DNA of 64,000 nucleotides from Malacoraja senta (GCA_038087875.1 CM075988.1:9984001-10048000); one strand, 5' to 3'. Counted from the first letter of the stretch, positions 5,226-63,546 are shown. Notes: generated by a model from the sequence alone, not told the origin. Numbers and translations are program-made.

Positions 5226-5990
5226 AGAACCTCCCACGAACCAGCCACTCAAAGTGGACTGGGAGATGACATTGACATTGCATTTGGAGGATTTTGTGAA
5301 GGAGTTAGTATTTACCAATGAGTTGAGCTCTCTACAGTAGATCATCAATATCTGCACAGTGTACAGAGTTGCCTGTGGACCAAGGTGTCATAATTTCAAT
5401 TGTGTAGGAAGGGACTGCAGATGCTAGTTTACACTGAAGATAGATAGAAAATGCTGGAGTAACTCAGCAAGTCAGGCAGCATCTCTGGAGAAAATAAATA
5501 GGTGACCTTGTTCAGACTAATTCCTGGGCTTTGAACTGACTTTCCTGCAGGCAGCTAAAGGCCAGTGCAGTGGATATTGTTGTCAATGTCTACCTTCTTT
5601 GAGTGGTTGTTCTAAGATTAGGGAAATGATTCATCTTGTCTAGCAGCTTATCGTGATTAGCGATGGTCTGGTTATGGGCGGCAAGGACAGTCTGGTGAAA
5701 GACCTCTATTTTCGAGGTATTTAATGTAAGGACCATTCTCTCATTTGCTTCAAGGAAGGAATTGGTGAAAATTTGGACTTTGGTCTCCAAGTGGGTCCTT
5801 ATGCAAGTTTTGTCTGTACCCCATGACTCAATGATGGTGTTTGGAATGAGCTCGGTTCTGGAAGGGAGGTGATGAAGGTTTTTTACTGTACATTGAATCC
5901 ATTTAATCAAGGAAACCATTGGACACGAGATAAAACATTGCAATAAGGATGCTTGGGAAGACCATTAGCCTTGTTCTGCTTGACAACATC
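5226..5990 (-). mobile_element. Degenerate RTE-clade LINE RT fragment, interrupted by a PLE end at ~5401-5520
   Basis: Translation ...NSFLEANERMVLTLNTSKIEVFHQ...NHFPNL resembles the post-YADD region of RTE; boundaries approximate. Confidence 0.6.
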
Positions 5991-6489
5991 ATCAAATGAC
6001 TTTATGTGATCTGCGGGTCACAACTTATTTATCATCATGAATAAAGGTAGAGAATAATATTGATTTTGGGTCATTCATAATACGGAGAAGCATATTTATT
6101 GTCTAACTGTAAATAAGTATTAATAAACATTGATACATGCTCTTCATTTAAAATAATATTTATTTAAAGAGTACAGCATGTTCTAGATCTCAGTGCTCTA
6201 CTTTGTAGTATTAAATGAATAGATGTTTATGAATTTAACGGAAATTTAAAAAAAAAACAATGAGAGAGATTTTTGTGTTTTTTTGTTCTCAAAGCATAAG
6301 AGGTTGATGTAGTTTGGTCTATTCGTTTCCATGTAAACTATCTTTGGATATAAAACAATGTTTTTTTAAATATTAAATGTCTAAATTTAATGTTTAGAGG
6401 CATTTTGTTTGCATAACTGTAAGTGAACTCACAATGGAGCTGTGGTGTTAGAATGAGAGGATTCTGTATTGATCACAACTGGAGACTAA

Positions 6490-6770
6490 AGGGCCTGTCC
6501 CACTTACGTGATTTTATTCGGCGACTTGCCGGCACCCGTCATAGTCGCAGCAGGTCGCCGAAAATTGTCAAAATGTTCAAAATCCAGCGGCAACCAGAAA
6601 AAAAGTACGATTCTTTGGGCGACTACTCATGACATGTCACGGGGTGACGCCTGTATGGTCGTGAGTAGTCACCCAAAGAGTTGTACCTTTATCTGGTCAC
6701 TGCTGGATTTTCAACATTTTGACGGGTGCCGGCAAGTCGCCAAAAAAATTGCGTACATGGGACAGGCCCT
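6490..6770. mobile_element. PIF/Harbinger-like MITE (palindromic; same family as 50568-50910)
   Basis: TIR AGGGCCTGTCCCA.../...TGGGACAGGCCCT, long inverted arms, flanks TAA/TGA. Confidence 0.8.
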
Positions 6771-6879
6771 TGACTACAATAGGAAAGAATAGAAAATATC
6801 CAGTACATAAAACTATACGATGACTTTTTTGCAATTTACCAAAACAATGATTGGATTTTAAGAGGCAGTACTTAAAACA

Positions 6880-7195
6880 GAACAACGAACAATACAGCAC
6901 AGGAAAATACCTTACAGTCTACAATGTCTGCTGAAAATAATGCCAAGATAAATTAATGCCATCTGCCTGCATGTATCCATATCCTACCATTCCCTGCAAT
7001 ATCCACATGCCTATCTAAAATCCTCTTAAACGCCACCACCGTATCTGCCTCCAGCACCACCCCTGGTCTGTTACAGAAATCCATGTAACAAACTTTGCCC
7101 CTCTCACCTTAAAGCTGTGTCCTCTATATTTGACATTTGCACCCTGAGCAGAAAATGCTGCCTCTCTACCCTATCTATGCCACTTATAATATTAT
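6880..7195 (-). mobile_element. CR1/HER1-like LINE 3' fragment
   Basis: Reverse complement resembles the CR1 tails at 20301-20697 and 36100-36254. Confidence 0.7.
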
Positions 7196-7518
7196 ATGCA
7201 CATGCAAGTATGCAAATATTGTCAAATGCACAAGCAATGAAGAGATAGACGATTCACAGCAAGCAGAGAAGACATGCATTCAAATCGACCTTTGCTTTGA
7301 TAACTTTCACCATTAACAAATAATTTAATGTATCCTACCATTGAAATTATGGATTGAGCTGGAGTACATTTGTGGAAATTGAGCAGCCTGGGTGAGGCCC
7401 ATGTATGTATTCCACAATGTGTAGCATGTCTGTTAATATGGGAGCCACATTTTCTGACAGTAAATTGCAAATTACAAGACCAGCAACAATTTAAGTGACC
7501 ACTGAATTTTAATTTTGG

Positions 7519-60529: not shown

Positions 60530-61320
60530 AGGACACAAAGTGCTGTAGTAGGGTCAGGCTCATCGGGTGTAGTGGGTCAGGCACCATCCCTGGAGAACAT
60601 GGATAGGTGATATTTTGAGTCGGACATTTCTTCAGGCTTATTGTAGTGGGGGGTTGGGTGGGAGGGGGGGTGTTGATAGTTGGAACAAAGGCCAGAGATT
60701 AAAGCAGAAAGTGTGAAACAAAGAGTTGCGAATTGCGAAGCCAGAGGAAGGAATGTCAGTGGAGGGAGAGGGGAGACATTGGTGTGAGTCCAGATGGGGC
60801 ACAAGGGAAATGGTGGGAGGGAAGGAAGGGGGGATTGGGGAAGATTGGGGAGGGGTGAGGATGGTGTAAGAGGTTACCTAAAATTGGAAAATCCGATGTT
60901 TATACCGTTGGATTGTAAACTACCCAAGCAGAATATGAGGTGTTGCCCTTCCAGTTAGCATACGGCCTCACTCTGCCAATGGAGGAGGCCCAGGACAGAA
61001 AGGTCAGTCTGGGAATGGGAGGACGAGTTAAGGGCCTGTCCCACTTGGGAGTCATTTGCGGGTCATGCAGGTGGTGTGCGAAGATTTTGTGAATTCCAAA
61101 ATCCTGGGGCTCCCTGCGCTACCGTGCGTCACTGCCTACGCCACCACTCCTCACCACGCGCCATGCGCGTGAAATGCACGCCATGCTCCTGTGACGACGC
61201 GGACGTTGTGCGTCATGACGCATAAATGATATCGCGTAAATGACACGTAAATGACGCCCAAGTGGGACAGGCCCTTAAAAATGGGAGATCCAGTAAGACT
61301 TGGTGGACCGAATGCAGGAT
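60530..61320 (-). mobile_element. Penelope-like element 3' fragment split by a MITE
   Basis: Similar to 55330-55960; minus strand encodes SHSQTDLSVLGLLHWQSEAVC*LEGQHLIFCLGSLQ. Confidence 0.8.
61031..61275. mobile_element. PIF/Harbinger-like MITE
   Basis: AGGGCCTGTCCCACTTGGG../..CCCAAGTGGGACAGGCCCT; flanks TTA/TAA. Confidence 0.85.
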
Positions 61321-61410
61321 AAAAGTGATCAGAATACTATGAACAAAACCCATTATTGAAATACAATTTTACTGAAGTAACTTAATGTGGAATTGATAAG
61401 ATTACACTCA

Positions 61411-62566
61411 CAAGGATCTATTTAAAGCCAATTTTACACCCCTAATTGACCACATCATACAACAATTTACTAAATGGTCACCAATGTCCTTATCTCTAAT
61501 CGGCCAAATCAATGCTATTAAAATGTTTATCCTACCTAAATGTTTGTATTTATTTCAGACGATACCAATTTTTATTGCTAAATCTTTATTTGATATTATT
61601 GAATCAAAAATGTCTTCATATATATGGCAGAATATAAATTCCAGACTAAGTAAAAAATACTTACAGAATTTTTTTTAAAAAGACGGTGGTTTGGCACTGC
61701 CGAACCTTAGATTTTACTATTGGGCACTTAATGCTCGCTATTTATCGTTTTGGACAAAAGATTTCGAAGATATCCAATGCCCAGGATGGATAAATCTTGA
61801 ACGTGATTCTATTCAAGGGCTATCATTCTAGGGGCCTAGTTACCCTTTACAATTACGAGATTGAATAAATATACGATTAATCCAGTAATAAGACATACAT
61901 TCTGAGTATGGTTTCAATTTCGTGAGTTTTTTGGATTGAATGATTTTATCTTATCGAGTCCTAACATATCTATTTTTTTCTTCCAACCTTCTAGTACTGA
62001 TCAAGCCTTTCTGTTATTGAAGAGGAAGGGATTAGCAGTTTTTCGTGACTTGTTTTAGGATGGTTGTTTTATGTCTTTTGAACAACTCTCCAATAAATAT
62101 AATCTACCTAACTCACATTTCTTTAGATATTTTCAAATTAGACATTTTTTGAAGGCTACTCTACCCTCTTTTCCGTTACCACATCAAACCAAAATCTTGG
62201 AAAAAAATTTACATTTGAACCCTTATCAGAAAGGTTTAATAACGACTATTTATGCGTTGATTTTGAAATTACAAATAGATACATTGGATAAAATTAAGAA
62301 CGACTGGGAAAGATCACTTCAAATTTCTCTACCTATAGAAAAATGGGAGAGGATTCTTCAATTAGTTAATACCTCTTCAATGTGTGCAAGACACGCTTTG
62401 ATACAATTCAAGGTGGTTCACAGAGCTCATATGTCAAAAGATAAGTTAGCTCGTTTTTATGGTCATAAATCTTATCTGTCACATGTTATGTTTATCATTA
62501 TTGTTTTTTTTTGGTGTTGTTTTGTTTTTACTTTTGAAAAAAAAATAATAAAAAGATTTTAAAAGA
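61411..62566 (+). mobile_element. 5'-truncated, internally deleted L1
   Basis: 13-bp TSD AAGATTACACTCA at 61398-61410 and 62567-62579; LSLIGQINAIKMFILPK..., HALIQFKVVHR; A-rich tail. Confidence 0.9.
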
Positions 62567-63139
62567 AAGATTACACTCAGAATTGTTGGTATCCTATTTT
62601 AAGAATTCACGGTAACCATTCAAATATTTTATTTGATCTTATATGCCTTCTGAAGTTTTTTTTAACGGATTCTTTAATATACTGTCTAAGGGACACCATT
62701 TCCAGTTGTAGAATTGAGCATCAACATCACCTCAGGCTGTTGTGGCCAAGTTCTTGAAGTGAGACTTCAAACGATAACTCTGACTCAGAAGCAACGCAGT
62801 TACCTACTGAGCCATAGCAGACTATAAAGTGGACTGAAGGAACTAGGCAGAGAAATAAGAGCTGGCTTCCAATCTAATTGTGCAAAGGAAAGGCATAAAC
62901 AGTACAAGGATTTGTTAGTGAAATAAATAGGGAAAAGAGCGAAGGTGTTGTCAATGATTTACAATTCCAGATTTATCACACTGATACATTTTCCCATTAG
63001 CTTCCCTCAAAGGAAAATAAACAGAAATTATAGTCACATTTCTTCTTAACACACTAAATGTAAATTTATCCTGGAACAATTAGAATTCATAGCTCTGAAC
63101 TTCAGTGTCAAAATACTATGAAATCTGTGAACCAAATGA

Positions 63140-63546
63140 AAACCAGATTTGTAATGATAATTGACACAAAATGTTGGAATAACTTAGCGGGTCAGGCAGC
63201 ATCTCTGGAGAAAAGGAGTAGGTGATGTTCCTGGTTGAGACCCTTCTTCAGACTGAGAGTCAGGGTAGAAGGAAACTAGAGGTATGAAAGGTTTGAGAAC
63301 AAAACAGCACAGAGGGGGAGCAGCAAGAGAGGGTGTTGCAGAACTCCTGTCGGAGAGAGGAGAACTTCTTCAAAGTAGCCATACCTTGAGGAGATATCGC
63401 AGTGGAGCAGACAAAATGTGTCAGGAGGAACTGCAGGTGCTGGTTTACATCAAAGATAAACTCAAAATGCAGGAGTAACTCAGTGGGTCAGGGAGAATCT
63501 CTGGAGAAAAGGAATAGGTGACATTTTGTGTCGAGACCGTTCTTCA
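63140..63546 (-). mobile_element. Two tandem PLE pseudo-LTR ends
   Basis: Copies at ~63160-63300 and ~63415-63546, each with a degenerate hammerhead on the minus strand. Confidence 0.7.

What the first reader, a model, noticed from the sequence alone, without database searches (positions are those of the whole stretch)
5401..63546. Dispersed Penelope ends carry a minimal, dimer-type hammerhead ribozyme
Seen: at least 15 copies of one short repeat (e.g. 7585-7613 -, 8801-8832, 11828-11846, 14436-14465, 34035-34062, 43325-43355, 53953-53983, 55182-55206, 63221-63252 -). Their consensus is GT-CTGAAGA-A-GGGT(CTCG)ACCC-GAAA-CG-TC-ACC. This holds every hammerhead core element: CUGANGA, a G-C-closed stem II, GAAA and a GUC cleavage triplet. 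Stem III is reduced to the palindrome ACGU, which cannot fold as a hairpin. Several copies sit just downstream of PLE GIY-YIG C-termini. Established: Penelope-like elements carry minimal type I hammerheads reported to cleave as dimers. Inference: tandem pseudo-LTRs such as 63140-63546 would supply the two halves of a dimer. No single copy here has a fully intact core, and many losses fall at CpG sites, so these copies look decayed.
Basis: partly seen in the sequence, partly recalled or inferred. Interest (0 to 1): 0.75.

Follow-up and report, generated by a model that had tools for sequence, protein, structure and literature searches.

The report
Decayed Penelope ends with minimal hammerheads
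This stretch of DNA, likely from a ray, skate or shark, holds about 30 broken tail ends of a Penelope-like jumping gene whose shared sequence matches the minimal 'hammerhead' self-cutting RNA motif already described for such elements; no copy here keeps a complete motif, so it is an ordinary and likely inactive example of a known feature.

Summary
No copy is intact (0 of 16 spanning the core; 11 miss one core base), and CpG decay dominates. Two copies sit behind clear GIY-YIG remnants, a third behind its last codons; the homologues checked are ray, skate and whale-shark proteins of Neptune-type Penelope-like elements. A fold-back insertion with a 16-bp target duplication and a one-sided tail confirms the class. 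This is the motif published in 2014, fish Neptune elements included. The dimer inference for 63140-63546 is not supported: both cores there are broken, and inverted pairs outnumber direct tandems. Core conservation does not exceed the downstream flank (92% vs 89%, p=0.22), there is no covariation, helix I has only 2 bp, and the hammerhead fold is not the predicted minimum. One extra observation: no copy begins at the cleavage site, while 10 of 22 short copies begin at the ribozyme's 5' edge, suggesting uncleaved templates and a preferred 5' boundary. Known kind, low interest.

The parts
43323..43388 (+). Copy with near-intact hammerhead (only A14 changed); pyrimidine-rich upstream tract; tail-to-tail fold-back with 43376-43428 (-)
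53951..54050 (+). Copy with near-intact hammerhead (U4 changed); begins at the motif's 5' edge
34031..34105 (+). Copy with G12 changed (CpG transition); head-to-head with 33785-33864 (-)
54943..55305 (+). Last codons of the element's ORF with stop, 197-nt pyrimidine-rich spacer (54984-55180, GT..AG ends), hammerhead with a 7-nt deletion over the cleavage triplet, downstream repeat and tail
55330..55972 (-). 5'-truncated element: GIY-YIG endonuclease remnant (55718-55972), 296-nt spacer (55427-55722, GT..AG ends), decayed hammerhead (55398-55425), repeat end
55980..56060 (+). Inverted repeat-end arm abutting the 5' end of the 55330-55972 element (head-to-head)
60522..61047 (-). 5'-truncated element: GIY-YIG C-terminal remnant (60877-61047, one internal stop), 241-nt spacer, decayed hammerhead, repeat end; the remnant appears to continue beyond an inverted-repeat insertion at 61028-61281
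63150..63547 (-). Direct tandem, 296-nt period; both hammerhead cores broken; upstream copy starts at the motif's 5' edge; the interior holds a 33-codon ATG frame not confirmed as the ORF start
30485..30703 (.). Single fold-back insertion: two head-to-head arms (3' half of the motif onward), tail on the right arm only, 16-bp target-site duplication at 30485-30500 and 30688-30703
7508..7760 (.). Head-to-head pair joined inside the motif (7508-7614 -, 7611-7687 +) plus a short third copy (7694-7760 +)
17481..17737 (.). Head-to-head pair joined at the motif
21353..21539 (.). Head-to-head pair joined inside the motif
14175..14560 (+). Copy with ~260 nt of upstream spacer, C3 changed, tail present
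5397..5518 (-). Copy with stem II deleted
8801..8916 (+). Copy starting at the motif's 5' edge, G8 changed
11826..11941 (+). Copy starting inside stem II
19165..19651 (.). Head-to-head pair (19165-19284 -, 19578-19651 +) about 294 nt apart
29892..29991 (-). Copy starting at the motif's 5' edge, preceded by a short stutter of the first core box
47223..47311 (+). Copy starting downstream of the motif
52607..52710 (-). Copy starting at the second core box; same subfamily as the 30485 fold-back
54220..54365 (-). Copy with upstream pyrimidine tract, G12 changed

Best explanation
The repeat is the 3' terminal repeat and tail of a high-copy Penelope-like retrotransposon, likely of the Neptune clade in a cartilaginous fish, and it carries the minimal type I hammerhead motif known from such elements, broken in every copy of this window. 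Shown: the repeat, the motif in the majority sequence, the GIY-YIG remnants, the inverted pairs, the tail and one target duplication. Inferred: an active master element was transcribed; its reverse transcriptase primed at one of two sites about 36 nt apart at the repeat's 3' end and mostly stopped after 60-160 nt, often on both strands of the cut, leaving short solo and head-to-head copies that then decayed neutrally, CpGs first. The templates were likely uncleaved RNA, since 25 of 30 copies reach upstream of the cleavage site and none starts at it. In the master RNA the motif would cleave weakly, only with a second copy to form stem III and probably with help from the element's protein; that step rests on published work with other elements and is untested here.
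For: Majority passes the strict descriptor, null 0 of 10. It has the four unselected hallmarks listed by PMC4209133 except covariation: extra base between 9 and 10.1 (A in 19 of 20), G10.1-C11.1, palindromic 15.2-16.2; the first loop base is among the most variable non-CpG positions (T 12, C 8, A 1). The 72-aa remnant finds 62 proteins at E<=0.001; three of those read (P0025, P0029, P0054) show a Cys linker before the GIY-YIG-like part and P0054 also RT C-terminal motifs (my reading); P0054 finds 52 long proteins, nearly all with RT and several with GIY-YIG Pfam hits, 51 of 52 with a CX2-5CxxC linker, which PMC8557442 ties to Neptune. All 6 homologues looked up are named from rays, skate or whale shark. 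Fold-back with 16-bp duplication and one-sided tail matches the structure in PMC3846280 and PMC8557442. In public contigs 196,407 records of run X1 lay on a 1.2-kb stretch at >=80%; 6 of 6 shown joint rows leaving the deleted copy at 55206 continue with the missing triplet; 7 of 11 shown loose-end rows covering the site have G12 and 10 of 11 the palindrome and triplet. PMC11167929 reports uncleaved RNA as the dominant insertion substrate and protein-assisted cleavage for an anole element.
Against: No core-specific conservation and no covariation beyond shuffles (494 of 500 shuffles pair as well). Helix I is 2 bp in the majority and I found no longer version. The hammerhead fold is not favoured: monomer -3.9 vs -6.0 kcal/mol, double hammerhead -6.1 vs -21.1 for the best dimer, stem II probability about 0.1 in a 100-nt context; 4 of 4 real copies fold no better than shuffles. 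No Rfam hammerhead hit. No RT remnant in the window; Pfam GIY-YIG was not found on the window's own remnant and stayed below cut-off in 3 of 17 homologues, absent in 14. No tree with labelled clades was built. 4 of 11 loose-end rows, including both of run X19, show G12 lost.
Confidence: 0.85

Rival explanations
1. The tandem at 63140-63546 is, or recently was, a working double hammerhead or a non-LTR retrozyme unit of 296 nt.
For: The period of 296 nt lies in the 170-400 nt retrozyme range (PMC7229834); retrozymes were reported in the one cartilaginous fish sampled by the 2026 preprint. The two decayed stem III tetramers remain complementary to each other (sequence).
Against: Both cores are broken at catalytic positions; only two units; the predicted fold of the real tandem forms no hammerhead; no target duplication found by my search; 8 of 9 predicted Xenopus dimers did not cleave in that preprint.
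Confidence: 0.07
2. Same element, but in this family the motif is a relic or a structural or binding signal that no longer cleaves even in the master RNA: a purine at position 7 and a 2-bp helix I let the core pair with sequence behind the cleavage site.
For: The competing fold is the predicted minimum for the majority and several copies; no copy starts at the cleavage site; cleavage was dispensable for insertion in vitro and no RNA ends were seen at the site for the anole element (PMC11167929).
Against: All core positions and the unselected hallmarks are kept in the majority across copies that differ in loop and downstream sequence; energy models ignore tertiary and protein contacts; weak but real cleavage is published for similar motifs.
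Confidence: 0.2
3. The short copies are not random truncations but complete cDNAs of a small RNA that starts at the ribozyme's 5' edge, so the terminal repeat amplifies on its own like a SINE.
For: Of 18 copies with the first core box, 8 have the pyrimidine-rich upstream tract (0.71-0.87) and 10 do not (0.38-0.56); 9 of 21 short copies as first classed start within a 9-nt window (binomial p=0.006; 7 of 19, p=0.037, with two such copies left out). The bases just before C3 resemble an initiator element (recalled consensus, no call).
Against: The window was chosen after seeing the data; several starts are inversion junctions and not independent; the same bases read equally as a 3' splice site, where PMC4209133 places the Drosophila virilis intron end; a polymerase stop at the stem or at the pyrimidine tract would give the same pile-up; 12 other short copies start further downstream.
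Confidence: 0.2
4. The match to the hammerhead core is chance.
For: No covariation and no Rfam hit.
Against: 0 strict hits in 10 resampled 64-kb windows on both strands; the motif sits where Penelope-like elements are published to carry it.
Confidence: 0.02

Closest known systems
Minimal hammerheads (min-HHR) in the pseudo-LTRs of metazoan Penelope-like elements (Cervera and de la Pena 2014, PMC4209133)
   Same: Type I order, core boxes, extra base before stem II, G10.1-C11.1, palindromic stem III without loop, mostly solo copies from truncated elements; the paper names fish Xena, Poseidon and Neptune elements.
   Different: Stem II is 5 bp (7-8 in Schistosoma) and helix I 2 bp (4-5 in Schistosoma, 2 in the D. 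virilis variant). Sharks or skates are not named in the text parts and the 2 supplement files I could search; the figures and supplement file 1 were not seen.
Neptune clade of endonuclease-bearing Penelope-like elements (Craig et al. 2021, PMC8557442; Arkhipova et al. 2013, PMC3846280)
   Same: C-terminal GIY-YIG, Cys linker in homologues, heavy 5' truncation, inverted head-to-head ends, optional 30-40 bp tail, target duplication.
   Different: Only ends and endonuclease remnants lie in the window; clade placement rests on homologues' linker motif, not on a tree.
Poseidon element of Anolis (Frangieh et al. 2024, PMC11167929)
   Same: Two 3' end positions defining a tail; insertions made from uncleaved RNA.
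   Different: There the ORF starts at stem II and the ribozyme was shown to cleave with protein; here the majority has no open frame through the motif and nothing was assayed.
Non-LTR retrozymes of animals (PMC7229834; bioRxiv 10.64898/2026.07.22.740005)
   Same: One 296-nt direct tandem; derivation from Penelope terminal repeats is proposed.
   Different: Retrozymes have complete hammerheads in consecutive units, usually canonical ones; here both cores are minimal and broken and most copies are solo or inverted.

Membership tests
PLE minimal hammerhead (min-HHR) | Core boxes CUGANGA, GAAA and UH in type I order | tested here: met
   Met in the majority; not in any single copy (0 of 16)
PLE minimal hammerhead (min-HHR) | [quoted passage not shown] | tested here: met
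   A in 19 of 20 copies covering it
PLE minimal hammerhead (min-HHR) | Stem II closed by G10.1-C11.1 | tested here: met
   G-C in 12, G-U in 2, unpaired in 4 of 18 aligned copies
PLE minimal hammerhead (min-HHR) | Palindromic 15.2-16.2 with no loop 3 | tested here: met
   Majority; 10 of 11 shown loose-end rows in public contigs; decayed in most window copies because it is a CpG
PLE minimal hammerhead (min-HHR) | Helix I closing the cleavage site (4-5 bp in Schistosoma, 2 bp in the D. virilis variant) | tested here: inconclusive
   2 bp only, 62% of cells paired; the paper's descriptor figure was not visible
PLE minimal hammerhead (min-HHR) | Compensatory changes among families | tested here: inconclusive
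   None beyond shuffles in 18 decayed copies; low power, no genome-wide subfamily set
PLE minimal hammerhead (min-HHR) | Located in the terminal repeat of a Penelope-like element | tested here: met
   197-296 nt behind the ORF stop in 3 of 30 copies
PLE minimal hammerhead (min-HHR) | Weak self-cleavage as a dimer | not testable with these tools
   Energy model does not favour the double hammerhead; needs an assay
Neptune-clade Penelope-like element | Single ORF with RT and C-terminal GIY-YIG | tested here: inconclusive
   Window has only GIY-YIG remnants; homologues carry RT plus this domain
Neptune-clade Penelope-like element | CX2-5CxxC linker before the endonuclease | tested here: inconclusive
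   Outside the window's remnants; present in 51 of 52 long homologues and in P0025, P0029, P0054
Neptune-clade Penelope-like element | Direct or inverted pseudo-LTRs, optional 30-40 bp tail, target duplication | tested here: met
   9 inverted and 2 direct close pairs; 16-bp duplication and one-sided tail at 30485-30703; no clear duplication at 8 of 9 sites searched
Neptune-clade Penelope-like element | RT phylogeny within Neptune | not tested
   No labelled reference set at hand
Non-LTR retrozyme | Tandem units of 170-400 nt | tested here: met
   One pair, 296-nt period
Non-LTR retrozyme | Complete hammerhead in at least two consecutive units | tested here: not met
   Both cores broken

The most novel reading that the evidence does not exclude
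In this family the RNA begins at the ribozyme's 5' edge, so the ~130-nt terminal repeat is a self-contained, SINE-like unit that the Neptune reverse transcriptase copies in full from uncleaved RNA; the hammerhead would then mark the transcript's 5' end and gate it (cleavage removing the first ~30 nt) instead of resolving tandems, explaining the 2-bp helix I, the pile-up of 5' ends before the core and the huge copy number.
Probability: 0.15. Interest if true: 0.55.

Novelty: new member of a known kind. Interest (0 to 1): 0.2.

Why it matters
As it stands it adds a cartilaginous-fish Neptune-type family to a motif already described across animals; 358 earlier notes of this scan in at least 29 genomes mention Penelope and hammerhead together. 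What the hammerhead does for these elements is still open (PMC8557442). The only lever this family offers is its very high copy number: a genome-wide map of 5' ends could tell cleaved from uncleaved templates, and a transcription start from a splice site, without bench work.

Tried and rejected
No whole genome is held, so intact copies could not be collected. Pattern scans found nothing in viral contigs, metagenome contigs or prokaryote genomes, as expected for animal DNA. Rfam: no hammerhead; its microRNA hits at 30512-30635 are below gathering score and reflect the fold-back. Word-index protein searches with the 44-aa remnant and with the tandem interior found nothing; the Atlas gave only sub-0.9 leads, one with 15% GIY-YIG. 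The 33-aa frame inside the tandem resembles the N-termini of the 52 long homologues no more than shuffles do (257 of 500), so 'internally deleted full element' is unconfirmed. Splicing of the GT..AG spacer: no matching joint among the 15 of 1014 joints shown, and none of 62 homologues shows the predicted C-terminal extension; left open. No RNA holder listed; three laid runs are only guessed to be RNA, so nothing is said on expression; contigs cannot show RNA ends. The 20 rows that I did not lay are not used. Loose ends behind 55269/55270 (4 of 4 runs) and 55305 (2 of 4) are 36 nt apart like a tail, but the first may also reflect subfamily divergence. The idea that inverted arms supply a long helix I was rejected: at 7613 the arm would pair over the cleavage triplet. 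The earlier-findings search by sequence and by shark/skate words gave nothing. Literature searches for hammerhead+Penelope+shark, Penelope/Neptune+elasmobranch and start site+truncated copies found no description of this family or of a 5' pile-up; the library lacks most subscription papers, and Lunse et al. 2017 was not held.
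Full report
Observation. All nine cited sites hold the repeat. An iterated profile from the window's own copies gave 32 hits at E<=1; I analysed 30 and dropped two fragments (16 and 30 nt). It passes a strict descriptor I wrote; the window has 0 strict and 2 one-mismatch hits, and Markov-resampled windows give 0 strict hits in 10 of 10, a mean of 0.1 at one mismatch and 0.8 at two. 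Of 16 copies that truly span C3-C17 none is intact and 11 miss one core base. CpG positions keep 94 of 138 letters, non-CpG core positions 193 of 210; 37 of 102 substitutions are CpG transitions (these tallies include one spurious alignment start at 33903). Independent decay would leave about 2.3 intact cores, so 0 is low but not remarkable.

What the repeat is. Two copies lie 241-296 nt behind endonuclease remnants (55718-55972 and 60877-61047, minus strand) and a third 197 nt behind about ten codons and a stop. The 72-aa remnant found 62 proteins; I read 12 of them and scanned 17 against Pfam, where GIY-YIG appeared below cut-off in 3. P0054 found 52 proteins of 734-958 aa with RT domains, some with GIY-YIG; 51 of 52 carry a CX2-5CxxC linker, which PMC8557442 (passages) associates with Neptune. 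A profile of these 52 hits the window only at the two remnants (E 2e-10 and 1e-4); no RT remnant is present. The six homologues looked up come from two rays or skates and the whale shark, so the host is likely an elasmobranch. Four public contig sets were laid on 54850-56080: 196,407 records of X1 fit at >=80%; all 6 shown joint rows that leave the deleted copy at 55206 continue with the missing triplet, and 7 of 11 shown loose-end rows covering the site have G12, 10 of 11 the palindrome and triplet, at agreements of 0.5-0.73 (most rows were not shown). The ancestral motif is thus intact in its 3' half across relatives; the 5' half was not directly tallied there.

Arrangement. Eleven neighbouring pairs lie within 300 nt (5.1 expected, P=0.002): 6 head-to-head, 3 tail-to-tail, 2 direct. 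The insertion at 30485-30703 is one event: two head-to-head arms, a tail on one arm only, and a 16-bp target duplication; 8 other sites searched showed no clear duplication (one 7-mer). This matches the structure described in PMC3846280 and PMC8557442 (passages) and the two priming sites of PMC11167929 (parts 1-2 of 4).

The dimer inference. A loop-less stem III can only form between two copies, as PMC4209133 argues (parts 1-2 of 4; its dimers cleaved weakly) and a review repeats (PMC6765202, passages); Lunse et al. 2017 was seen only as a reference title. That general reading is reasonable. The specific tandem is not a candidate: the upstream copy lacks C3 and G12, the downstream one A13, both lack G10.1-C11.1, and its predicted fold has no hammerhead. 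Its interior could be the start of the ORF joined to the end of the spacer, but that was not confirmed. Inverted pairs cannot supply a partner on the same transcript (inference).

Results against a working ribozyme. Core conservation is not above the best downstream block (193/210 vs 948/1067, p=0.22). In 18 aligned copies 73% of cells pair, far above slid controls (15-39%) but not above column shuffles (494 of 500), and covariation is absent. Helix I is 2 bp. The energy model prefers a fold in which the core pairs with sequence behind the cleavage site, and four real copies fold no better than shuffles. Dead copies are expected to show no selection, and the anole ribozyme needed protein, so these results lower but do not exclude activity of the master.

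An extra pattern. Relative to C3, 8 copies reach into the pyrimidine-rich spacer, 10 begin at -5..+3, 7 within the motif (the closest 2-4 nt before the cleavage site), 0 at the site and 5 further downstream (17616 was moved to the second group after the pyrimidine test). Templates were therefore likely uncleaved, as in PMC11167929. The pile-up at the 5' edge (p=0.006 for 9 of 21; 0.037 for 7 of 19; post hoc) coincides with a YAG that ends a GT..AG spacer of 197-296 nt, 72-75% pyrimidine, whose GT overlaps the ORF stop. It may be a 3' splice site, as PMC4209133 reports for the D. virilis intron (intron also in PMC2377424, passages), a transcription start (initiator likeness is recalled, from no call), or a polymerase stop. 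My calls do not separate these.

Comparison and verdict. It works like, and by sequence belongs to, the published minimal hammerheads of Penelope-like elements, at the short-helix-I end. It is not a retrozyme by the criterion of the 2026 preprint (parts 1-3 of 5; supplements not seen, and they may list this family for the one cartilaginous fish sampled) or PMC7229834 (passages). PMC6155905 (passages) does not mention shark elements. Searches found no description of this family; the 2014 supplement search found no shark or skate entry in 2 files, with file 1 unsearchable. New member of a known kind; interest 0.2.

Noticed in passing
1-5225: LTR retrotransposon with 155-bp LTRs 99% alike; protease-bearing ORF 674-2302 and RT-RNase H-integrase ORF 2220-4481 in different frames, Gypsy-type order; looks young.
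   Followed up: partly
25429-27199 (-); 32520-33011 (-); 62059-62562 (+): LINE remnants; RT and zf-RVT Pfam hits for the first; 25438-25737 and 32529-32828 are 76% alike.
   Followed up: partly
36500-40100 (+); 27751-28600 (-): Fragmented ORFs that read like a tyrosine-recombinase (DIRS-type) retrotransposon by my recall; Pfam found nothing for 3 of 3 ORFs tried; 27751-27970 and 37062-37281 are a 74% inverted match.
   Followed up: partly
61028-61281: About 250-bp element with 39-bp terminal inverted repeats and TTAA at both ends, inserted into the endonuclease remnant; a similar end follows the copy at 34105.
   Followed up: partly
22630-22939; 40725-41036; 50565-50913: Further ~310-350-bp elements with 80-98-nt near-perfect terminal inverted repeats, MITE-like.
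   Followed up: no
30497-30650: The fold-back would give a ~77-bp RNA hairpin (-115 kcal/mol) and draws sub-threshold Rfam microRNA hits; a possible source of double-stranded RNA.
   Followed up: partly
12504-13239; 48094-49800: A 23-nt tandem array, and a long CT-rich low-complexity array with a 200-N gap.
   Followed up: no
19307, 22471, 32973, 42296, 42819, 45652, 50027, 52125: A second dispersed family of ~110-140 nt matches, SINE-like by my reading; ARAGORN found no tRNA in the window.
   Followed up: no
11320, 30084, 57397, 58428; 20286-20615: Repeated 3' ends of another LINE family (family D17).
   Followed up: no
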